NCBI GenBank assembly: GCA_018396775.1
Contig: JAGTRF010000002.1
Location: forward strand, 14,069 to 78,068
From: Candidatus Bathyarchaeota archaeon
GTDB taxonomy: Archaea; Thermoproteota; Bathyarchaeia; 40CM-2-53-6; DTDX01
Length of the DNA stretch: 64,000 nt
Direction: 5' to 3'
In this document: positions 36,653 through 46,101 of the stretch, in pieces
Position numbering within the stretch: the first letter of the stretch is position 1
Layout: every line of letters begins with the position of its first letter
Position numbers and translations under genes: made by a program
The notes under the pieces: generated by a model
What the model was told of the DNA's origin: nothing
Database searches by the model: none
The model's input: only the letters and a program-made list of their open reading frames with translations

Positions 36653-36913
36653 CTAAACTTCCTCATCTTTTATTGGATTATAACCTAACCTTTTAATTCT
36701 TTCGAAATCATGTTGAAGAAAAGGCGTTAAAGCAGCTTCTTCACCTATATATATTAATGGAAACCCGCATATACTGCATACTCTTTCTTCAATAGTTGCC
36801 CCCACTCTTGGAGCATAGAAATAATTTGTTAAAACTGCTATGCCTCTAGCATCTGGATGACTTAAAAAATTTAAGCAATCAAAGAAAAGCCAAAGATTCC
36901 ATCTTTCCTCCAT
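36653..36913 (-). CDS. Hypothetical protein.
   Basis: 86-aa ORF, same strand and downstream of hisIE. No motif recognised. Confidence 0.3.
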   Translation of the reverse strand: MEERWNLWLFFDCLNFLSHPDARGIAVLTNYFYAPRVGATIEERVCSICGFPLIYIGEEAALTPFLQHDFERIKRLGYNPIKDEEV

Positions 36914-36976: not shown

Positions 36977-37651
36977 TTATTTACATGCAGTTTTAGCTTT
37001 ATGTCTTTCCTCTAATTCTTTAAAAATTTTCTTTAAGCTTATTCCTTTGTTGGCTAATAAAATTAAAACATGAAAAATTAAATCTGAAGCTTCAAAAACA
37101 ACTTCTTTTTCATCGCTTTTTTTTGAAGCTAAAACAAGCTCAAAAGCTTCTTCACCAATTTTTTGTAAAATAGCATCTTCACCTTCACTTGAAAGCTTAG
37201 AAACATAAGATTTTTCATTAAAGTTTTCTATTCTCTCTACGATAACTTCATAAATTTTTTCTAGAAATCTTCCATTAACAACCCCCTTCCCCTCTAAAGA
37301 GAAAGGTGAATTGTGAAAGCAGGATTCTTCCCCAGTATGACAGCAAACACCAATTTGATGAACTTTAAATAAAATAGCATCGTTATCACAGTCTAAAATA
37401 ACGTTTTCCACTATAGAATAATGTCCAGATTCCTCGCCTTTAAGCCATACTCTCCTTTTTGTTCTACTCCAATAATGCATTTTTCCAGTTTTTAACGTAA
37501 GCTTTAAAGCTTCTTCATTCATGAAAGCTTGCATTAAAACTTTTTCACTATCCTTATCTTGAACAACTACTGGAACTAAACCATTCATTTTTTTAAAATC
37601 AACTTTTGAAACAAGCTCTTCTATTTCTCCTTCCGATAACTTTAAAACCAT
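36977..37651 (-). CDS. hisI: Bifunctional phosphoribosyl-AMP cyclohydrolase / phosphoribosyl-ATP pyrophosphatase.
   Basis: N-terminal HisI (CHTGEESCF). C-terminal HisE-like helical domain. Confidence 0.8.
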   Translation of the reverse strand: MVLKLSEGEIEELVSKVDFKKMNGLVPVVVQDKDSEKVLMQAFMNEEALKLTLKTGKMHYWSRTKRRVWLKGEESGHYSIVENVILDCDNDAILFKVHQIGVCCHTGEESCFHNSPFSLEGKGVVNGRFLEKIYEVIVERIENFNEKSYVSKLSSEGEDAILQKIGEEAFELVLASKKSDEKEVVFEASDLIFHVLILLANKGISLKKIFKELEERHKAKTACK

Positions 37652-37787
37652 TTTTATACAACTCCTAAATCTTACTTAATTTCTCTTTGTTACTTATTAA
37701 TTAAAGCTATGAATATTTTTTTGATAGGTTTTTTTGACAGTTATAATAATCTAAAAAATCTTTACACTTTTGTTTAAGCCAATTAAT

Positions 37788-38228
37788 TTACTTAGAAAAA
37801 TTAAACTCAATATTTTTCAAAATTGCATCCACCAATTCGTTAGCTCTCTTCGCTTTTTTTAAAGCTTTATAAGCTTTTTCTTCGTTATAAAGTTCCCAAG
37901 GTGTAATACCTTCTGTAGGTTTACCATAAGTAGCAATTCCATGTTCAGGTGCTAATTCATGAGCTAAGTACGCTAACTCTTCAATAAAGTTTTTTTGTTC
38001 TAGTGATAATTCATGCATAACTTCTATCAATTCACTTGATGGATCATGAGTCCAACTTGGTATTCTTTTTAAAGCAATTATAGCTTTAGCGGCACTTTCA
38101 ATAGATAATTGTGAGGCTTCAACACTTTCTTTATAGTCACCTGTATTTAAAAATTTTTCCGCTTTTTTCAAGTATTCTAAAGCTAATTTGCATCTATAAT
38201 TCACTTCTGAGGTTGGATCGATTTTCAA
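37788..38228 (-). CDS. HEPN domain protein (toxin of the HEPN/MNT pair).
   Basis: 146 aa, helical. Directly follows an MNT nucleotidyltransferase. The Rx4-6H motif was not clearly identified. Confidence 0.55.
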   Translation of the reverse strand: MKIDPTSEVNYRCKLALEYLKKAEKFLNTGDYKESVEASQLSIESAAKAIIALKRIPSWTHDPSSELIEVMHELSLEQKNFIEELAYLAHELAPEHGIATYGKPTEGITPWELYNEEKAYKALKKAKRANELVDAILKNIEFNFSK

Positions 38229-38231
38229 AAA

Positions 38232-38681
38232 TTACACCATTATTGTAGTAAAATATTTATCTTTTGGCTTCCATCCGTATTTACCATCTTTTGTTCTATA
38301 TCTTTCAAGTTTATCTTTAACAGCATCCTTTATGCGTTTAAATAATTTCTCAAGTTTTCCAGAAGGATCATAAAGTATTATAGAATCCCATGCGATATTT
38401 AAAAGCAATGGAGTTATCGTTAATTCCTCTTTAAAAAGATTCTCTTCATCAACATCTATTATGGTTATATCTCGTTTAAGAATATTGTATAAATGATGAT
38501 ATATTGTAAATCTTCTACCTTCTTCTTTAAACTCTTTAACGACTATGAAAAAATCAGCATCACTATATTCGCAAGCTTCATTTCTAGCCCAGCTTCCAAA
38601 TAATGCTATACCCGTAATTTTATCTCCTAAAGCATTAACAAGCGCTTTAGAAGCTTTATACGCTAATTCTATTGCTTGCAT
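38232..38681 (-). CDS. Minimal nucleotidyltransferase (MNT, Pol-beta superfamily).
   Basis: GSWARNEACEYSDADFFIV matches the GS...DxD NTase signature. Confidence 0.75.
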   Translation of the reverse strand: MQAIELAYKASKALVNALGDKITGIALFGSWARNEACEYSDADFFIVVKEFKEEGRRFTIYHHLYNILKRDITIIDVDEENLFKEELTITPLLLNIAWDSIILYDPSGKLEKLFKRIKDAVKDKLERYRTKDGKYGWKPKDKYFTTIMV

Positions 38682-38791
38682 AACAATTTTATATATGACT
38701 ATAAGCTTAAAAGTTTTTATATTCCCTCAATAAAAGGCTTTGATTATAATAAATAAGATTTTTTTAAATTCTTTATGAGTGAGAAAAGCTT

Positions 38792-39601
38792 CTAATCTAA
38801 CCTAACTGGAATTCCCTGTTCTTTTAAAAATTTTTTAACTTCTAATATGCTGTATTCTTCTTCATGGAAAATAGAGGCTGCTAAAGCTGCATCAGCTTTA
38901 CCTTTTGTTAAAGCTTCTAAAATATGCTCTGGTTTTCCTGCACCTCCGCTTGCAATTATTGGGATGTTAACATTTTCGCTTATAGTTTTTGTTAATAGAA
39001 CATCATATCCATTTCTTGTTCCATCGTAATCCATGCTTGTAAGCAAGATTTCTCCAGCTCCAAGCTTTTCAACTTTTTTAGCCCATTCTATAGCGTCTAT
39101 ACCTGTAGGCGTTCTTCCCCCTTCTATATAAACTTCCCACCAGCATTTTCCTTGAGGAGTTTCAATTATATTCCTTCTTGGCTTACTTAACTTTTCATAA
39201 TTTCTTTTAGCATCTATAGCTATAACTATGCATTGTTTGCCGAAAGTTTCAGCAGCTTTTTTAATTAAGCTTGGATTTTTTACAGCGAAAGTATTTATAG
39301 AAACTTTATCTGCTCCTGAAGAAAGAATCACTCTTATATCTTTTAAGCTTCTTATTCCACCGCCAACAGTAAATGGAATAAAAACTTCTTCAGCTGTTCT
39401 TTTTACAGCATCTAAAAGTATATCTCTACGTTCATATGAAGCTGTAACATCTAAAAAAACAAGTTCATCTGCGCCTTGTTCGTTGTAAATCGCCGCTAAC
39501 TCCGCTGGATCCCCTTCAATCCTTAAATTTTTAAATTTTATTCCTTTAACAACTTTTCCTTTTTCCACATCTAAACATGGAATTATTCTTTTAGTTAACA
39601 T
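38792..39601 (-). CDS. hisF: Imidazole glycerol phosphate synthase cyclase subunit.
   Basis: TIM-barrel HisF blocks ([22 protein letters not shown]). Confidence 0.85.
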
Positions 39602-40286
39602 TTTTCGCAGCCTCTATTGCCTCTTTTAAAGTGAATTTTCCTTCATAAAGAGCTCTTCCAACTATAACTCCATCAACTCCAATTTTAGATAATTCTTTAA
39701 TATCTTTTAAACTTCCTACGCCTCCTGAAGCTATAAACTTTATGTTTGATAAATATGCTGCTTTAGAAATTTTATCTATTGATGGACCTAATAAAGTTCC
39801 ATCTTTATCGATTAAAGTTAAAATTAAAACTCCAACATTAAGCTTTTTAATTTTCGATATTAAATCTAAATAAGTTAGATTTAACTCTTTTCTCCAACCT
39901 TTAACAGCTATTTTCTCTCCTTTAACATCTATAGCTGCTGCTGTTTTTTCCGGTCCAAATTTATCTGAAAAGCTTTTTACTAAGATGGGATTTTCAATTA
40001 ATGCTGTTCCAAATATAACTCTACTAGCTCCATAACTTATAAGTTTTTCAGCTTTATCAAATGAATTTACTCCGCCTCCAACTTGAACTTTAACTTTAGC
40101 CTCTTTTAAAATCTGTTTTATAACATTCATGTTTTCTCTAAGATTTAAAGCAGCATCTAAATCTATTACATGAATCCATTCTGCTCCATCTTGAGTAAAT
40201 TTTTTAAGCGGAATCAATGGGTCATCAAAATAAACTTTTTTTGTTTCAGCTTTCCCCATAAATAGTCTAACGCATTTTCCATCCAT
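39591..40286 (-). CDS. hisA: ProFAR isomerase.
   Basis: HisA-like ([18 protein letters not shown]). Confidence 0.8.
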
Positions 40287-40319
40287 TAAATCTATAGCAG
40301 GTATAACTATCGTAAGCTT

Positions 40320-40928
40320 TCACCTTTTAATTAAATAAACGAAATTTTCCAAAATTTTTAATCCATTATCTCCACTTTTTTCAGGATGAAATTGCGTTGC
40401 ATAAATGTTATTTTTAGCTATAATTGAAGGAAAAACCACTCCATAATTAGTTGTTGATAAAACTATTTTAAAATCTTCTGGTTTAGCGATATAAGAGTGA
40501 ACAAAATACATAAAGGCTTCATCTTTAACACCATTTAGAATATCATCATCTTTAATTATTTTTATAGTGTTCCAACCTATATGTGGAAGTTTTACTGTTT
40601 CCGGTAGCTTAACAATATTTCCTTTTAATAAATTTAATCCTGAAATAACTCCGCCTTCAAAGCTTTTTGTAAATAAGAGCTGAAGACCTAAACATATTCC
40701 TAAAGTAAATTTTCCAGAGTTTACAAAATCTTTAATTACATATTCTAAACCTTTAATTTTTTTTCTTGCTTCTTTAAATGCGCCAACGCCAGGCAACACT
40801 ATAGCATCAGCTTCTTTAACATCTTTAAGCCCACTCGTAATTTTTACTGTTGCTTTACAATTTTCTAAAGCTTTAGAAACACTTCTAAGGTTTCCCACTC
40901 CATAATTTAGAATTATTATTTTAGGCAT
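40320..40928 (-). CDS. hisH: Imidazole glycerol phosphate synthase glutaminase subunit.
   Basis: Class-I GATase (GICLGLQ with catalytic Cys, HPEKS). Confidence 0.85.
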   Translation of the reverse strand: MPKIIILNYGVGNLRSVSKALENCKATVKITSGLKDVKEADAIVLPGVGAFKEARKKIKGLEYVIKDFVNSGKFTLGICLGLQLLFTKSFEGGVISGLNLLKGNIVKLPETVKLPHIGWNTIKIIKDDDILNGVKDEAFMYFVHSYIAKPEDFKIVLSTTNYGVVFPSIIAKNNIYATQFHPEKSGDNGLKILENFVYLIKR

Positions 40929-40934
40929 AAAGCT

Positions 40935-41513
40935 TTAAAGAGCCTCCTTAACGCTTGGGATCTTCCCTTTTAATTTTTCATCAATTGAAATAGCATTTTT
41001 TAAAGCTAAAGCGAAAGATTTAGCGGTAGCTTCAATTTTATGATGAGCATTAACTCCATAAAAAACTTTAATGTGTAATGTAGATTTTGAAGCTTGAGCT
41101 AAAGAAGAGAAAAAGTGAATTACATCTTCAGCTTTCACATCTTCTATTTCCTCTTGATAAACTTTAAGGTTTATTTTAGCGTATGGTCTCCCGCTTAAAT
41201 CAATTACAGTTCTAGCTAAAGCTTCATCCATAGCTGCATAAGCGTAACCAAATCGTTTAATCCCTTTTTTCTCTCCTAAAGCCTCTAAAATAGCTGAGCC
41301 AATTGCTATTCCTACATCTTCAATTAAATGATGTTTTAAATCTCCTGAAGCTTTAATTGTTAAATCAATCATTGAATATTTAACTATTGTGTCAAGTATA
41401 TGGTTTAAAAACTTTATTCCCGTTTCTACCTCAGTTTTTCCTTCACCATCAAGGTTTAATTTTCCTAAAACTTCAACTTCTTTAGTTTTTCTTTTTATTT
41501 TAGCTTCTCTCAA
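40935..41513 (-). CDS. hisB: Imidazoleglycerol-phosphate dehydratase.
   Basis: HHxIE and DxHH motifs (HHLIEDVGIAIG, NAHHKIEA). Confidence 0.85.
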   Translation of the reverse strand: MREAKIKRKTKEVEVLGKLNLDGEGKTEVETGIKFLNHILDTIVKYSMIDLTIKASGDLKHHLIEDVGIAIGSAILEALGEKKGIKRFGYAYAAMDEALARTVIDLSGRPYAKINLKVYQEEIEDVKAEDVIHFFSSLAQASKSTLHIKVFYGVNAHHKIEATAKSFALALKNAISIDEKLKGKIPSVKEAL

Positions 41514-41516
41514 TTT

Positions 41517-42602
41517 TTATCCCTCTTTAAAAATCAAACTTAATTCATTAACATCTTTTAAAATTACATCAGCATTAATTGAGGGGTTTTTCGAAACGAT
41601 AATGGATAAAGATTTTATTGAATAATTTGTTTTTAGTCTTTCAATTAAAATAGCCTCTGCTGCTGTGTCTCCTACATAAGCTGAAAGCTTGTTTTCAGCT
41701 TTCAATTCTTTAAGAAGGTTAAAAAAGGGTGTAGGATTTGGTTTTCCCGACTCTTCCAAAAAACTAAATTTATTTATTTCCTCCCAAAAATACGATTTTT
41801 CTAAATTAAAATAATTTTCAAGATTAAACTTTTCTAATACGTAAATTGCTTGTTTTCTAGTTCTTTCACTATAAATTATAAGTTTACCAAATTTTTTGCA
41901 AAGTTTTCTTAATGTTTCAATTGTTATAAGTGGAACTTCATTTTCTATAAAACCTTTATTTAAATTAAATAAGGCTGGTTGATTATAAAATTCTTCATAA
42001 AGATTTTTTCCTAAATAAAATTCTTCAAAAATTTTTTGAGGTAAATCTTCTTTATTTACTTTAGTTTGAATGAAGTTTTTTAATTTAGGTAAAGAATCGG
42101 TTAAATTTGGAAAAATTTTTTGCAAAGCCTCCAACTCACTTACGTTTTTTAATAAGCTTAATAAAGGTTTAAACCCTATTTTTTCACTTTTCTTTATTAA
42201 ACTTAAATAAGTTAAATTTAATCCATGAGAATTAAAAAACTCTTTTAACTTTTCAATCATATTTAAAATTTCCTTTAAATTTTCCCCCTCTTTAATTAGC
42301 TTTAAAAAATCCTTGTTTTTTAAAGCTAAAGCTGAAAAAAAATATAAAATAAAAAACCTTGTTAACTTCCAATCATCATTATACATACCTGTATCTTTAA
42401 ATTTTTGAATTTCTTTTTGCGTAATCAAATTTAAGCATGAACCCTTAAGTTTTAATAATTGAAAAAAGTAAAAGTTTACGGTTTCTTGAATAGCTCTTCT
42501 AAAAGAATTTCTTGATGAAAACACTACTCCATCAAAATCTAAAATTAAAACCTCAACTTTTTTTAATTTATTTAAAGCTTTCTCATCAATTTTTAAATAC
42601 AT
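41517..42602 (-). CDS. HAD-superfamily hydrolase embedded in the his operon (candidate histidinol-phosphate phosphatase).
   Basis: DFDGV motif I and C-terminal GDTAAEA motif IV. 361 aa with a large cap insert. Confidence 0.55.
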   Translation of the reverse strand: MYLKIDEKALNKLKKVEVLILDFDGVVFSSRNSFRRAIQETVNFYFFQLLKLKGSCLNLITQKEIQKFKDTGMYNDDWKLTRFFILYFFSALALKNKDFLKLIKEGENLKEILNMIEKLKEFFNSHGLNLTYLSLIKKSEKIGFKPLLSLLKNVSELEALQKIFPNLTDSLPKLKNFIQTKVNKEDLPQKIFEEFYLGKNLYEEFYNQPALFNLNKGFIENEVPLITIETLRKLCKKFGKLIIYSERTRKQAIYVLEKFNLENYFNLEKSYFWEEINKFSFLEESGKPNPTPFFNLLKELKAENKLSAYVGDTAAEAILIERLKTNYSIKSLSIIVSKNPSINADVILKDVNELSLIFKEG

Positions 42603-42603
42603 T

Positions 42604-43695
42604 TTAAGAATCTTCCTTTAAAACTTTTTTTAATTCAGAAGTAAATTTAATATTCATTTTCCTAGTTCCAACAGTAACTCTTAAACACTTTTCTAAAAGA
42701 GGATCTTTACTTCTATCTTTTATATAAACTCCTAAGCGTTTAAGTTTACTGCATATAGATTCAATTGATAAATCATTTTTATTAATTTTAAATAGAATAA
42801 AGTTTGCTTTTGAAGGAAAAGGAGTTACTCCATCTATTTTTTTTAATTCATTAAAAAGCCACTCTCTCTCCTTAATAATGCATTTAATCTTTCTCTTAAA
42901 TAAACTCCACTCCTCTAAAGCTATTTTAATAATTTTTTGAGTTATGGAATTCACTGAAAAAGGTCCTGAAACCCTCATTAAATAATTAACCACTTTCTCA
43001 TCAGCTGCTGCAAACCCTGCTCTAATTGAAGCTAAACCAAAAGATTTAGAAAAAGACCTTAAAACAATTAAGTTTTCATATTTTTCAACTAGGTTAATTA
43101 TGGAAAAGTCTCCAAAATCTACGTAGGCTTCATCAACAACAACTAAACCATCAAAGTCTTTCAAAATTTTTTCAACATCTTCTATGCTGAACTGATTTCC
43201 GGTAGGATTGTTGGGCGAGCAAATAATAACCATTGATGTTTTGGAGTCACATTTACTTAGAATGCTATTCACATCTAATTGAAAATTTGGCTTTAATAAA
43301 ACCTCTCTTTTTTCTCCACCATAAAGCTTTACAAAGAAAGAATACATATTGAAAGTAGGCTCGTTAATTATGATATTGCTTCCTTTGGGAATAAAAGTTT
43401 TTGAAATCTTATCTAATAAGTCATCTGAGCCATTAGCTACGAATATTTTTTCCTCTTTTAAATTATAAAATTCAGCTATGGATTCTATAGCTTCTTTTCC
43501 GTAAGGTTTTGGATAAAACCTAAAATCAAGTTTTTTAATTGCTTTTTCAACAATCTTCTTAATTTCTCTATTTGAAGTAAATAAGTTTTCATTTAAATCT
43601 AATTTAACGATAGTTTTTAAGCTTTTTATTTCAAGTAAATCTTTAACGTCATATGGTTTAACTTCTTCTACTTCAGGTCTGATTAAAAGCTTCAT
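42604..43695 (-). CDS. hisC: Histidinol-phosphate aminotransferase.
   Basis: Class I/II aminotransferase. PLP Lys in SFSKSFGLA. Confidence 0.8.
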   Translation of the reverse strand: MKLLIRPEVEEVKPYDVKDLLEIKSLKTIVKLDLNENLFTSNREIKKIVEKAIKKLDFRFYPKPYGKEAIESIAEFYNLKEEKIFVANGSDDLLDKISKTFIPKGSNIIINEPTFNMYSFFVKLYGGEKREVLLKPNFQLDVNSILSKCDSKTSMVIICSPNNPTGNQFSIEDVEKILKDFDGLVVVDEAYVDFGDFSIINLVEKYENLIVLRSFSKSFGLASIRAGFAAADEKVVNYLMRVSGPFSVNSITQKIIKIALEEWSLFKRKIKCIIKEREWLFNELKKIDGVTPFPSKANFILFKINKNDLSIESICSKLKRLGVYIKDRSKDPLLEKCLRVTVGTRKMNIKFTSELKKVLKEDS

Positions 43696-44329
43696 TTCTT
43701 TTCACTATCTCATCAACTTTTTCAATAAACTCTTTAATTTTATTAAAGCTTCTATAAGCAATTTTATTGCAAATCAACCTAGCTGTAGACTCTAATATAA
43801 CTTCAATTTCTTTTAATCCATTTTTTCTTAATGTTTCTCCTGTTGTTGAAAGATCCACTATAGCATCTGCTAAACCAAGTTTTGGAGTTAATTCTGCGCT
43901 TCCTCTAACTGTTAAAATTTCAATAGGCTTTTTTAATGAATCAAAGAATTTTCTTGTTAAATTTGGGAATTCTGTAGCTACTCTAGCGTTTAATGGAAGC
44001 TCAACAGCGTTATTTAAATTAGCTTCTATAGGCACAGCTAGTACAAGCTTGCATTTTCCAAATTTTAAATCTGAAACTTCATACACGTCTGCCTCTCTTT
44101 CCAAAATTATGTCATGTCCAGTTATCCCTAAGGTTGCTGCTCCATATTGAACATAAAGAGGAATATCAAAAGCTCTAGCTAATACAACCTCAAACTCTGA
44201 GTCTGAAGTCTTTAAGATATATGTTCTTTCCTGTTCTTTAACTTTTAATCCAGCTTTCTCAAGAATTTTCAGGGCTGGAGCCTTAAGCCTACCTTTGCTA
44301 GGCAAAGCTACTCTAAAACAATTCTCCAT
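43673..44329 (-). CDS. hisG: ATP phosphoribosyltransferase, short form.
   Basis: 218 aa. LPSKGRL N-terminus and DLSTTGETL motif. Lacks the C-terminal regulatory domain of the long form. Confidence 0.8.
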   Translation of the reverse strand: MENCFRVALPSKGRLKAPALKILEKAGLKVKEQERTYILKTSDSEFEVVLARAFDIPLYVQYGAATLGITGHDIILEREADVYEVSDLKFGKCKLVLAVPIEANLNNAVELPLNARVATEFPNLTRKFFDSLKKPIEILTVRGSAELTPKLGLADAIVDLSTTGETLRKNGLKEIEVILESTARLICNKIAYRSFNKIKEFIEKVDEIVKRNEAFNQT

Positions 44330-45552
44330 TAACTCTCCTCCTTAAGAATAAACTTTAAAGCTTCATTAATGCTTAACTTCTTTTCTTTTCCAGTTTTCAC
44401 ATTTATTACTAAAGCATAATCATTATCCAATTTTATTATAGCATTTGCCTTGCAGCTTTTCGCTATCATTTTTATTTGATCTATTGGTTTTGTAGATTCT
44501 AGAATTGTTGCAACTCCATTTTCTCTTAATTTTGAAGCGAATTCACCCCCAAGCTTTAAAGATGAAACCTCTAAAACAACAGTTTTCCTATAGCTATTTA
44601 ATAATGATTGATTTTTAATTGCTTTAAAGCATTCTGTAACGTCTATTGCAAATCCAGTTGCTGGTAAATCTTCGCCAAATTTTTTTAGCAATTCATCATA
44701 TCTTCCGCCTCCAGCGATTGGAAAACCTAAAGTTGGTAAAGAAGCTTCAAAAATTACCCCGCTATAATACTCTATTTCTTTAGTTAAAGCAAAATCAAAA
44801 AATAACTCTTTTACTCCTAGGTTTTCTGCAGCTTCATTTATTTCGAGAAGATTTACTAAAGCCTTCTTTATAGCTTGATAGCTTTCCGCTTCTTTAAGAA
44901 CATCTTTTAAATCTGAAATTTTAAAGCATTTAAAAAGCTTTTTTAAAATTAAAGCCAGCTTTAAAGGGCATCGTTTATTTTCTAAAAAGCTTTCAAATCT
45001 TGAGTAATCTTTATAGCCCGCTATCGCGAAAAGCTCCTCTTTTTCTTGAGGGTTTAAATTTAATTCATTTACAACTTCTTTTAAAATAGCTGCATGGCTT
45101 ACATCTATTCTAAAATTTGTTAAACCTAAAGAATTTAAAGCTTCAGTTAAAAGTGTTAAAACTTCAGCATCAGCTTCAGAATCTTTTCTTCCGATTAATT
45201 CAACTCCAGCTTGCCAAAATTCCCTAAACCTGCCAGGTCTATCAATAACCCTTCTAAAAACATTCAGTATATAATATAATCTAATTGGTTTAGGCGTTGG
45301 AGATAATTCGCTTGTTAAAACTCTAACAGTTGGAATTGTTGCTTCAGCTCTTAAAGCAATAATTTTTCCATCTAAATCTTGAAATTTAAACATGCTATCG
45401 ATTAACTTTGAGCCTATACCTAGAGAGAGATCTTCTGCAAACGCGATTGTTGAGGGAATTACCTCCGTATATCCCCAAAGCTCAAATGCTTCTCTTAACT
45501 TTTTTTCTATATGCCTGAAAATGTAGGCTTCTTTAGGTGGAAAATCCTTCAT
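44329..45552 (-). CDS. HisS/HisZ family protein (class II aaRS-like; either ATP-PRTase regulatory subunit or a genuine HisRS).
   Basis: Motif-2-like FRRVIDRPGRFREFWQAGVELIG. GGRYD histidine-binding block. C-terminal roughly 100-aa alpha/beta domain resembling an anticodon-binding domain. Confidence 0.6.
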   Translation of the reverse strand: MKDFPPKEAYIFRHIEKKLREAFELWGYTEVIPSTIAFAEDLSLGIGSKLIDSMFKFQDLDGKIIALRAEATIPTVRVLTSELSPTPKPIRLYYILNVFRRVIDRPGRFREFWQAGVELIGRKDSEADAEVLTLLTEALNSLGLTNFRIDVSHAAILKEVVNELNLNPQEKEELFAIAGYKDYSRFESFLENKRCPLKLALILKKLFKCFKISDLKDVLKEAESYQAIKKALVNLLEINEAAENLGVKELFFDFALTKEIEYYSGVIFEASLPTLGFPIAGGGRYDELLKKFGEDLPATGFAIDVTECFKAIKNQSLLNSYRKTVVLEVSSLKLGGEFASKLRENGVATILESTKPIDQIKMIAKSCKANAIIKLDNDYALVINVKTGKEKKLSINEALKFILKEES

Positions 45553-45687
45553 TCCAGTTGGTAATCGAGGGTTTATGAACGTTAAGCCTCCTTTCCATTT
45601 TTATCTCCTATCACCTTAAGTTAATATCCCACTTTTTACCCACCAGATTTATATAAACCTTTCGTTACTCTTTAAAGGGGGAAATGA

Positions 45688-46101
45688 ATGGAGTTATCTA
45701 AAATCGTTAGGTTAGATTCTAAAGGTAGAATATTGATTCCTTCAAGCATTAGAGCTGGATTAGGTTTATGTAAAGGTATGTATCTGATGATTTATGCAAA
45801 TTTAAATAATAAAGAAGCGCGATTGATTCCTTTCGCTGATTCTAAAGCTAAGCTTATAAACTTTAAAATGACGCTTTCAGATGCGCCTGGAGCTTTAGCT
45901 AAAGCCGCTTCAACTTTAGCTAATTATGGTGTAGATTTACTTTCAAGCGAATCAAGAACTATTCAAAGAGGGAAAATCGCTGAATGGAATGCTATAGGTG
46001 ATATATCTAAATGCAAGCTTAACCTTAAAGAGTTGAAAAAAGCTTTAGAAAAAGAAGCTTCAGCTAAAAATATTCAATTCAAAAAGTTATCTCTTGATTA
46101 A
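45688..46101 (+). CDS. AbrB/SpoVT-type DNA-binding domain fused to an ACT domain (putative small-molecule-responsive regulator).
   Basis: N-terminal IVRLDSKGRILIPSSIR (swapped-hairpin). C-terminal ACT-like region. Confidence 0.55.
   Translation: MELSKIVRLDSKGRILIPSSIRAGLGLCKGMYLMIYANLNNKEARLIPFADSKAKLINFKMTLSDAPGALAKAASTLANYGVDLLSSESRTIQRGKIAEWNAIGDISKCKLNLKELKKALEKEASAKNIQFKKLSLD

What the first reader, a model, noticed from the sequence alone, without database searches (positions are those of the whole stretch)
41517..42602. HAD-superfamily hydrolase between hisB and hisC: candidate for the missing archaeal histidinol-phosphate phosphatase
The operon otherwise contains hisZ/S-like, hisG, hisC, hisB, hisH, hisA, hisF and hisIE. 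The only non-canonical member has HAD motifs I (DFDGV) and IV (GDTAAE) with a large cap. Many archaea have no assigned histidinol-phosphate phosphatase. Its position in the operon makes it a strong candidate.
Basis: inference. Interest (0 to 1): 0.55.

Follow-up and report, generated by a model that had tools for sequence, protein, structure and literature searches.

The report
Archaeal histidinol-phosphate phosphatase, known family
The extra gene in this archaeal histidine operon is very probably the phosphatase for the second-to-last step of histidine synthesis, but a related enzyme at the same operon position was shown to do this in 2024, so this is a divergent new member and not a discovery.

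Summary
A 361-aa ORF (41517-42602, minus strand) lies between hisC and hisB in a tightly packed his cluster. It has all four HAD motifs and a helical cap of about 200 residues.

The functional inference is very probably right but not new. Kinateder et al. 2024 (PMC10804674) showed that Nmar_1556 (nmHisN), a HAD gene between hisC and hisB in Nitrosopumilus maritimus, is a specific histidinol-phosphate phosphatase. They also reported Bathyarchaeota homologues.

The window protein comes from a low-GC Bathyarchaeia lineage. Its clade is homologous over its full length, cap included, to Thaumarchaeota/Bathyarchaeota sequences that fit that paper's cluster I (hhalign 100%, E 2e-76). In relatives at 32-80% identity, hisC lies directly upstream in 73 of 75 testable loci and hisB directly downstream in 69 of 69.

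Caveats:
- Only two of the four published specificity residues are kept (F34 and R35 replace Tyr and Asp; K69 and D77 match).
- Bacterial relatives with the same cap residues sit beside transketolase, not his genes.
- No member of this clade has been assayed.
- nmHisN's own sequence could not be retrieved.

Verdict: new, divergent member of a known kind; low interest.

The parts
41517..42602 (-). HAD-superfamily phosphatase with a C1-type cap, 361 aa; proposed histidinol-phosphate phosphatase (HisN of the nmHisN/toHisN type)
   Evidence: ORF. Pfam HAD_2/Hydrolase and TIGR01548 best hit, 82 bits, below cut-off. AF2 model pLDDT 89.4. hhalign to cluster-I-like sequences 100%, E 1.9e-76. Conserved his-operon context.
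42525..42539 (-). HAD motif I, DFDGV: D22 is the nucleophile and D24 the general acid/base (roles inferred from HAD chemistry)
   Evidence: Translation. D22, D24 and G25 invariant. Follows strand E18-21 in the model.
41928..42524 (-). All-helical cap domain, residues 27-225, about 11 helices; about 100 residues longer than in the short his-linked or HisC-fused forms
   Evidence: AF2 secondary structure. Alignment with short forms P0015-P0018. TIGR01548 profile of 197 positions spans residues 18-318.
42489..42506 (-). First cap helix, SFRRAI: F34, R35 and I38 correspond to nmHisN Y24, D25 and I28
   Evidence: hhalign columns SFRRAI / SYDEAI. HMMER alignment to PDB 6iah, SYDEA. Alanine-scan data in PMC10804674.
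42369..42410 (-). Cap segment IQKFKDTGMYNDDW: I65, K69 and D77 correspond to nmHisN I52, K56 and E64. K69, N75, D77 and W78 are invariant in the clade.
41862..41882 (-). HAD motif II, LIIYSER (S245)
   Evidence: S245 invariant. Follows strand E241-244.
41733..41747 (-). HAD motif III, GKPNP (K287)
41655..41672 (-). HAD motif IV, GDTAAE (D312, E316; Mg2+ ligands by inference)
   Evidence: Follows strand E307-311.
42604..43695 (-). hisC, histidinol-phosphate aminotransferase; makes the proposed substrate
   Evidence: TIGR01141, 329.8 bits, above cut-off 276.55.
40935..41513 (-). hisB, monofunctional imidazoleglycerol-phosphate dehydratase with no N-terminal phosphatase domain
   Evidence: PF00475, 2.6e-53, over a 192-aa protein.
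43673..44329 (-). hisG, short-form ATP phosphoribosyltransferase
   Evidence: TIGR00070, 218 bits.
44329..45552 (-). hisZ-like regulatory subunit (HisRS paralogue)
   Evidence: TIGR00443, 270 bits against cut-off 271.65; hisS model only 205 bits against 286.75.
36977..40928 (-). Rest of the cluster: hisH 40320-40928, hisA 39591-40286, hisF 38792-39601, an inserted nucleotidyltransferase/HEPN pair at 37788-38681, and hisIE 36977-37651

Best explanation
The gene encodes the histidinol-phosphate phosphatase (HolPase, EC 3.1.3.15) of a Bathyarchaeia histidine operon.

It is a type-IA HAD phosphatase, with the cap inserted directly after motif I. By the general HAD mechanism (inferred, not shown here):
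- Asp22 attacks the phosphate of L-histidinol phosphate made by the upstream HisC, forming an aspartyl-phosphate intermediate.
- Asp24 protonates the leaving histidinol.
- Mg2+ is held by D22, D24 and D312/E316.
- S245 and K287 bind the phosphate.

The helical cap of about 200 residues closes over the site and selects the substrate. Cap residues F34, R35, I38, I65, K69 and D77 occupy the positions that were shown by mutagenesis to control HolPase activity in the Nitrosopumilus enzyme nmHisN.

The gene is co-transcribed, and probably translationally coupled, with hisC and hisB. In more distant relatives the operon hisZ-G-D-C-HAD-B-H-A-F-IE then encodes every step of the pathway.
For: 1. Catalytic motifs I-IV are intact and invariant. 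The model is a confident HAD fold with a cap.

2. The position is conserved. All 50 genome loci found with a HAD-domain pattern have hisC directly upstream (often fused), and hisB lies downstream wherever the flank is held; these span Bathyarchaeia, Woesearchaeota, Methanosarcinales, Gastranaerophilales, Acidobacteria and Muribaculaceae. Among the 80 best long-cap relatives in metagenomes plus L001 and L002 (32-80% identity), hisC is directly upstream in 73/75 (hisD in the other 2) and hisB directly downstream in 69/69.

3. Fusion evidence: P0016-18 are HisC-HAD fusions whose N-terminal half passes the hisC equivalog model.

4. hisB here lacks a phosphatase domain.

5. Homology to the proven enzymes.
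- The best NCBIfam model is TIGR01548.
- Tt82 from Thermococcus thioreducens (6iah) is the top PDB sequence hit and second by fold; 1qyi is second by sequence and first by fold.
- The profile of the window's clade matches a profile of Thaumarchaeota/Bathyarchaeota sequences carrying YD(R/K)(D/E) or YN(R/K)D with 100% probability, E 1.9e-76, over 387 columns including the cap.
- Two of those sequences (P0032, P0052) are themselves in his operons.

6. nmHisN (Nmar_1556) lies between hisC and hisB and was shown to be a specific HolPase (kcat 0.79 s-1, KM 73 uM; nine other phosphoesters were not hydrolysed). Its cluster I contains Bathyarchaeota (PMC10804674).

7. The protein is 76% identical to its L001 orthologue, within the 72-90% range of the flanking his enzymes. 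This suggests comparable constraint.
Against: - Two of the four fingerprint residues that define predicted HolPases in PMC10804674 are not kept: F34 replaces Y24 and R35 replaces D25. Y24 is conserved in 98% of cluster I, and Y24A lowers kcat/KM about 300-fold; D25A lowers it about 220-fold.
- The family is not uniformly his-linked. Bacterial relatives of about 343 aa with the same Y-R-K-D residues lie right after transketolase next to PHO4/PhoU. A Nitrososphaeria relative lies between NDK and a NUDIX gene.
- The TIGR01548 score (82 bits) is below the curated cut-off of 140.
- No member of this clade has been assayed.
The residue mapping therefore rests on cluster-I-like sequences, on Tt82 and on spacing.
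- The rest of the genome could not be searched for a PHP-type, IMPase-type or HisB-N-type phosphatase.
Confidence: 0.85

Rival explanations
1. It is a HAD phosphatase for a different substrate (for example a sugar phosphate, phosphoglycolate or phosphoserine) that merely travels with the his operon. The true HolPase is encoded elsewhere.
For: Homologues with the same conserved cap residues (Y-R-K-D, N75, W78, F192, E194, E222) sit next to transketolase/PHO4/PhoU in bacteria and next to NDK/NUDIX in a Nitrososphaeria MAG. The family therefore probably has more than one substrate. The published fingerprint is only half met. Pfam and NCBIfam give only generic HAD or phosphoglycolate-phosphatase-like secondary hits.
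Against: The exact slot between the HolP-producing HisC and HisB is kept in essentially every relative examined, across several phyla and down to about 30% identity. It is also fixed as a HisC fusion in bacteria. The his-linked long forms make one clade, separate from the transketolase-linked clade, in a crude NJ tree. With the HAD counted as HolPase, the operon in relatives encodes all steps.
Confidence: 0.08
2. It is a HolPase whose enlarged cap has a second role, such as docking to HisC or HisB for channelling of histidinol phosphate. In that case the extra helices replace the covalent HisC-HAD fusion seen in bacteria.
For: Short forms of about 200-245 aa are fused to HisC or abut it. Archaeal long forms carry about 100 extra cap residues that are conserved as a block between two archaeal clades.
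Against: Nothing tests an interaction. nmHisN was reported as a monomer that is active on its own. Transketolase-linked bacterial relatives also have a long cap.
Confidence: 0.05
3. It is a catalytically dead or regulatory HAD-fold protein retained in the operon.
For: Only the loss of the Tyr hydroxyl (F34) and of the Asp (R35) at positions that matter in nmHisN.
Against: All catalytic residues of motifs I-IV are invariant. Conservation is on a par with the neighbouring enzymes. Phe at this position also recurs in other his-linked members, including a short form.
Confidence: 0.02

Closest known systems
nmHisN (Nmar_1556), histidinol-phosphate phosphatase of Nitrosopumilus maritimus (Kinateder et al. 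2024, PMC10804674)
   Same: HAD core with one large all-helical cap inserted after motif I. The gene lies between hisC and hisB. Accessory residues I28/I52 and fingerprint residues K56 and E64 (acidic) correspond to I38/I65 and K69/D77. The paper's cluster I contains Bathyarchaeota. The window's clade is homologous over its full length to sequences that fit the cluster-I description.
   Different: About 24% identity at profile level. Tyr24 is Phe34 and Asp25 is Arg35. Nine cap helices are reported for nmHisN, against about eleven in the model here. The window's clade is separate from the cluster-I-like sequences in the NJ tree. I did not compare it directly with the nmHisN sequence.
toHisN of Thermococcus onnurineus (Lee et al. 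2008, as cited in PMC10804674) and its relative Tt82 of T. thioreducens (PDB 6IAH)
   Same: Same family. 6IAH is the best PDB hit by sequence and second best by fold. The K/R and Asp fingerprint positions align.
   Different: Much smaller cap (240 aa in total; seven helices reported). Fingerprint is Y-D-R-D. The link from 6IAH to toHisN rests on the paper's statement about Thermococcales homologues, not on a test made here.
NCBIfam TIGR01548 (HAD-SF-IA-hyp1, a hypothetical equivalog)
   Same: Best-scoring curated model for the window protein and for every relative tested. JGI names many relatives 'TIGR01548 family'.
   Different: The model describes the short form (197 positions). Only the short P0015 passes the cut-off (156.5 against 140.2). 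The window protein scores 82.4, with about 100 residues inserted.
E. coli HisB-N (HAD IIIA 'DDDD' type) and P. aeruginosa PA0335/paHisN (phosphoserine-phosphatase-like HAD)
   Same: Same superfamily, same reaction and same catalytic chemistry.
   Different: Different cap architectures; judged to be independent recruitments in PMC10804674. TIGR01656 scores only 18 bits against a cut-off of 84.
PDB 1QYI, Staphylococcus aureus Q8NW41 (structural genomics, function unknown)
   Same: Best structural match (Foldseek E 3.7e-10, TM 0.57/0.54). Similar size (380 aa), with a long helical cap and the shared motif 'EWYLGSKLYE' / 'EEFYLGKNLYE'.
   Different: 17% identity, no known function, context not examined.

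Membership tests
HAD superfamily phosphatases | Motifs I (DxDx[TV]), II (S/T), III (K) and IV ([DE]x3-4[DE]) on a Rossmann-like core | tested here: met
   DFDGV, S245, K287 and GDTAAE are present, each at the end of a predicted beta strand, and invariant in the clade. Pfam HAD_2 39.3 bits and Hydrolase 31.8 bits are above their cut-offs.
HAD subfamily IA (C1 cap) | Cap domain inserted between motifs I and II, immediately after motif I | tested here: met
   Helical domain at residues about 27-225. NCBIfam hits are all subfamily IA models.
nmHisN/toHisN-type HolPases (PMC10804674) | Homology to nmHisN/cluster I over core and cap | tested here: inconclusive
   hhalign 100%, E 1.9e-76, 387 columns against an alignment of Thaumarchaeota/Bathyarchaeota sequences whose residue pattern (Tyr nearly always; D or N; K/R; D/E) matches the paper's description of cluster I. 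nmHisN's own sequence could not be retrieved, so identity with cluster I is inferred.
nmHisN/toHisN-type HolPases (PMC10804674) | Fingerprint Y24, D25, K/R56, D/E64 | tested here: not met
   The window has F34, R35, K69 and D77, so two of four match. [quoted passage not shown]
nmHisN/toHisN-type HolPases (PMC10804674) | Accessory hydrophobic residues I28 and I52 | tested here: met
   I38 and I65.
nmHisN/toHisN-type HolPases (PMC10804674) | Gene located between hisC and hisB in a his cluster | tested here: met
   Window. Relatives: 73/75 and 69/69; 50/50 genome loci.
nmHisN/toHisN-type HolPases (PMC10804674) | Specific Mg2+-dependent hydrolysis of L-histidinol phosphate | not testable with these tools
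   Requires an enzyme assay or complementation.
NCBIfam TIGR01548 | Score at or above the curated cut-off (140.2 bits) | tested here: not met
   82.4 bits, E 3.1e-23. It is the best model, but the long cap splits the match. Other long forms score 62-106 bits.
HisB-N type HolPase (TIGR01656 / bifunctional HisB) | Match to the histidinol-phosphatase domain model; usually fused to IGPD | tested here: not met
   18.3 bits against a cut-off of 84.15. hisB here is IGPD only.
PHP-type (HisK/HisJ) and IMPase-type (HisN of Actinobacteria) HolPases | PHP or inositol-monophosphatase domain | tested here: not met
   No such Pfam or NCBIfam hit for this ORF. The rest of the genome was not searched.

The most novel reading that the evidence does not exclude
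The his-operon-embedded Bathyarchaeia clade may be a distinct HolPase subtype that recognises histidinol phosphate without the Tyr hydroxyl and Asp that are critical in nmHisN. Its pattern is (Y/F)-(R/W/Y)-K-D, with F-R or F-W in the window's own lineage.

If so, the published four-residue fingerprint is too narrow. Transketolase-linked bacterial relatives carry the same Y-R-K-D set, so substrate choice in this family would have to be encoded elsewhere in the 200-residue cap. Candidate positions are E193 and F272, which are conserved in both his-linked archaeal clades but are Q and T in the transketolase-linked clade.
Probability: 0.3. Interest if true: 0.35.

Novelty: new member of a known kind. 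Interest (0 to 1): 0.2.

Why it matters
Histidinol-phosphate phosphatase is still the most frequent apparent gap in automated histidine-pathway reconstruction. GapMind 2026 reports hisN missing in 20% of prototrophs. Public records name this Bathyarchaeia protein only 'HAD hydrolase-like protein'.

Assigning it closes the histidine pathway for this lineage and argues against a false auxotrophy call.

The practical lesson is about annotation. Gene context identifies these enzymes better than the published residue fingerprint, which this operon-embedded clade only half satisfies. The same residues also occur in relatives with a quite different gene context. None of this changes the picture established in 2024.

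Tried and rejected
- **nmHisN sequence.** I tried four routes and none returned it: the paper's supplements (none held), a genome-contig scan (its pattern did not reach Nitrosopumilus), a profile search and a search with the Nitrososphaerales-like P0055. The residue mapping is therefore indirect.
- **AlphaFold-DB fold search.** The library was unavailable, so only the PDB was searched.
- **Model coordinates.** They are not exposed to scripts. I could not measure distances from F34, R35, K69 and D77 to the active site.
- **'Long cap means HolPase'.** Rejected, because long-cap relatives occur next to transketolase and next to NDK.
- **HisB-N, PHP and IMPase membership.** Rejected on scores.
- **dN/dS.** Not attempted. 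The only orthologues with DNA are 80% identical or less at protein level, so synonymous sites are saturated. I used relative conservation against neighbouring his genes instead.
- **hisD.** Searched for in the window and not found.
- **Literature.** Searches for TIGR01548, 6IAH, Bathyarchaeota HolPase and an AbrB-ACT regulator added nothing beyond PMC10804674.

Full report
**Observation**

It lies in a minus-strand histidine cluster:

| Gene | Coordinates |
|---|---|
| hisZ-like | 44329-45552 |
| hisG (short form) | 43673-44329 |
| hisC | 42604-43695 |
| the HAD gene | 41517-42602 |
| hisB (IGPD only) | 40935-41513 |
| hisH | 40320-40928 |
| hisA | 39591-40286 |
| hisF | 38792-39601 |
| nucleotidyltransferase/HEPN pair | 37788-38681 |
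| hisIE | 36977-37651 |

The packing is tight. One nucleotide separates the hisC stop from the HAD start and three separate the HAD stop from the hisB start. hisZ/hisG, hisG/hisC and hisA/hisF overlap.

The HAD motifs are all present: DFDGV (D22, D24), LIIYSER (S245), GKPNP (K287) and GDTAAE (D312, E316). Pfam HAD_2 and Hydrolase pass their cut-offs.

An AlphaFold2 model built on a 12-sequence alignment is confident (pLDDT 89.4, pTM 0.86). Each motif sits at the end of a core strand. Residues about 27-225 form a domain of about eleven helices inserted right after motif I, which is a C1 cap.

**Organism**

The window is about 31% G+C. The closest proteins and loci (73-99% identity) are from Candidatus Bathyarchaeia MAGs and sediment or hot-spring-type metagenomes.

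**What is already known**

Kinateder et al. 2024 (PMC10804674) followed a 2009 remark by Fondi et al. about an uncharacterised hydrolase gene between hisC and hisB in Thaumarchaeota.
- They purified Nmar_1556 from Nitrosopumilus maritimus and showed it is a HolPase (kcat 0.79 s-1, KM 73 uM with Mg2+).
- It does not hydrolyse nine other phosphoesters, phosphoserine included. They named it nmHisN.
- It is a HAD enzyme with a single large helical cap, homologous to the earlier Thermococcus onnurineus enzyme toHisN.
- An alanine scan defined a fingerprint of Y24, D25, K56 and E64, with accessory I28 and I52.
- Their similarity network placed nmHisN in a cluster of 154 sequences from Thaumarchaeota and Bathyarchaeota. 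Tyr is 98% conserved there, and D25 is often N. Euryarchaeal and delta-proteobacterial clusters have Y-R-K-D and were called 'likely HolPases'.

So the 'missing archaeal HolPase' at exactly this operon position has been found and proven.

**Relationship of the window protein to that family**

- The best curated model is TIGR01548 (E 3e-23, 82 bits). That is below the 140-bit cut-off because the model describes a short form and the window protein carries about 100 extra cap residues. Other long forms behave the same way, and a short relative passes.
- The top two PDB hits are Tt82 from Thermococcus thioreducens (6IAH; first by sequence, second by fold) and the S. aureus unknown 1QYI (second by sequence, first by fold).
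- An exhaustive phmmer search found 495 cluster representatives at E up to 0.001, mostly 300-420 aa. The long cap is therefore a family trait, not a peculiarity.
- A search seeded with one of these (P0055) returned 650 proteins. The named ones are mostly Nitrososphaerales, Thaumarchaeota and Bathyarchaeota, plus two Acidobacteria MAG records. Their residues at the fingerprint positions are YNRD, YNKD, YDRD and Y-x-K-E, which is the composition the paper reports for cluster I.
- A profile of the window's clade (A3) aligns with a profile of these sequences (A4) at 100% probability, E 1.9e-76, over 387 columns, cap included. SFRRAI aligns opposite SYDEAI, and IQKFKDTGMYNDDW opposite IQAIRNVGGFNNDW.

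This gives the mapping F34=Y24, R35=D25, I38=I28, I65=I52, K69=K56 and D77=E64. The mapping agrees with the HMMER alignment to 6IAH and with the residue spacings. I could not obtain nmHisN's own sequence, so equating A4 with cluster I is an inference.

**Context evidence**

- A genome scan with a pattern taken from the HAD domain alone gave 50 loci. All 50 have hisC immediately upstream, often fused, and hisB lies downstream wherever the flank is held. They come from Bathyarchaeia, Woesearchaeota, Methanosarcinales, Gastranaerophilales, Acidobacteria, Muribaculaceae and others.
- A metagenome scan with the long-form clade profile returned 247 relatives. In the best 80 plus L001 and L002 (32-80% identity), hisC is directly upstream in 73 of 75 testable loci (hisD in the other two), and hisB is directly downstream in 69 of 69.
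- The usual order is hisZ-G-D-C-HAD-B-H-A-F-IE. That is every step of the pathway if, and only if, the HAD is the phosphatase.
- Two cluster-I-like YDRD proteins are also his-embedded.
- HisC-HAD fusion proteins exist whose N-terminal half passes the hisC equivalog model.
- The window protein is 76% identical to its L001 orthologue, within the 72-90% range of the neighbouring his enzymes.

**Complications**

1. The fingerprint is only half met. Within his-linked relatives, K69 and D77 are invariant and positions 38 and 65 are hydrophobic. Position 35 is R, Y, W, H, N, C, P or S. Position 34 is Tyr in most but Phe in the window's own lineage and in a few others, including one short form. Operon-embedded enzymes therefore tolerate Phe and lack the Asp.

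2. The family is not uniformly his-linked.
   - Three bacterial relatives of about 343 aa, one named Thermodesulfobacteriota, lie immediately after transketolase. Two of them clearly carry Y-R-K-D, and two of the three loci also have PHO4 and/or PhoU genes just downstream.
   - A Nitrososphaeria relative lies between NDK and a NUDIX gene.
   - In a crude NJ tree the his-linked long forms are one clade, sister to the cluster-I-like sequences, and separate from the transketolase-linked clade and from the short forms.
   - A column comparison finds no difference at the fingerprint positions between his-linked and transketolase-linked groups. It does flag E193 and F272, which are conserved in both archaeal his-linked groups but are Q and T in the other. 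The transketolase-linked group was defined there by length and motif position, with gene context checked for only three members, so these positions are leads only.

For this protein the functional call therefore rests mainly on context plus homology, not on the fingerprint.

**Mechanism**

The intact catalytic residues, the fold and the context are shown here. The rest is inferred from HAD chemistry and from the nmHisN mutagenesis:
- Asp22 acts as nucleophile and Asp24 as general acid/base.
- Mg2+ is bound through D22, D24 and D312/E316.
- S245 and K287 hold the phosphate.
- The cap closes so that K69 and D77, and the first cap helix carrying F34, R35 and I38, contact histidinol phosphate.

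**Verdict**

It repeats a published, experimentally validated discovery. This is a divergent new member of the nmHisN/toHisN-type HolPases. Its one instructive feature is that it breaks the published specificity fingerprint while keeping the operon position. Interest is low (0.2).

Noticed in passing
window 45688-46101 (+) and the 135-nt intergenic 45553-45687: A 137-aa protein with an AbrB/MraZ-like N-terminus and an ACT domain is transcribed divergently from hisZ. A homologue sits in the same divergent position in 21 of 27 relatives' loci with enough upstream sequence, down to about 51% identity, including Ca. Bathyarchaeum. It is a candidate amino-acid-sensing regulator of the archaeal his operon. 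A TATA-like TTTATATAAA lies in the shared intergenic region. I found no literature on it.
   Followed up: partly
window 37788-38681 (-): A nucleotidyltransferase (MNT-like, 38232-38681) and HEPN (37788-38228) gene pair, a toxin-antitoxin-type module, is inserted between hisF and hisIE. Neither gene has a homologue in any of the related loci fetched, so the insertion appears specific to this genome.
   Followed up: partly
whole window; L001, L058-L061: hisD (histidinol dehydrogenase, the step after the phosphatase) is absent from the 64-kb window and from the operon in the nearest relatives. More distant relatives have it between hisG and hisC. The same lineage is the one with Phe in place of the fingerprint Tyr.
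   Followed up: partly
L052-L056 (proteins P0206, P0264, P0284): Bacterial long-cap homologues of about 343 aa lie directly downstream of transketolase in three separate contexts, two of them next to PHO4 and/or PhoU genes. At least two carry the Y-R-K-D residues. PMC10804674 predicted delta-proteobacterial homologues with this residue pattern to be HolPases. Gene context does not support or refute that, and it hints at another substrate.
   Followed up: partly
L051 6001-7095 (P0038): A Nitrososphaeria long-cap homologue (Y-N-R-D) lies between nucleoside-diphosphate kinase and a NUDIX hydrolase, not in a his cluster.
   Followed up: no
window 36653-36913 (-): An 86-aa ORF between hisIE and gatE has no Pfam match but is 87-92% identical in the five closest related loci. 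That is at the upper end of, or above, the 72-90% seen for the his enzymes nearby.
   Followed up: no
L003-L050 and P0016-P0018: In Gastranaerophilales (Melainabacteria), Muribaculaceae and other bacteria the short-cap homologue is fused to, or abuts, the C-terminus of HisC, giving proteins of about 575 aa that would catalyse two consecutive steps of histidine synthesis.
   Followed up: partly
L137/L138 8448-9599: In a cluster-I-type archaeal his operon, a PurP-like gene (DUF1246/DUF1297) is inserted between hisA and hisF.
   Followed up: no
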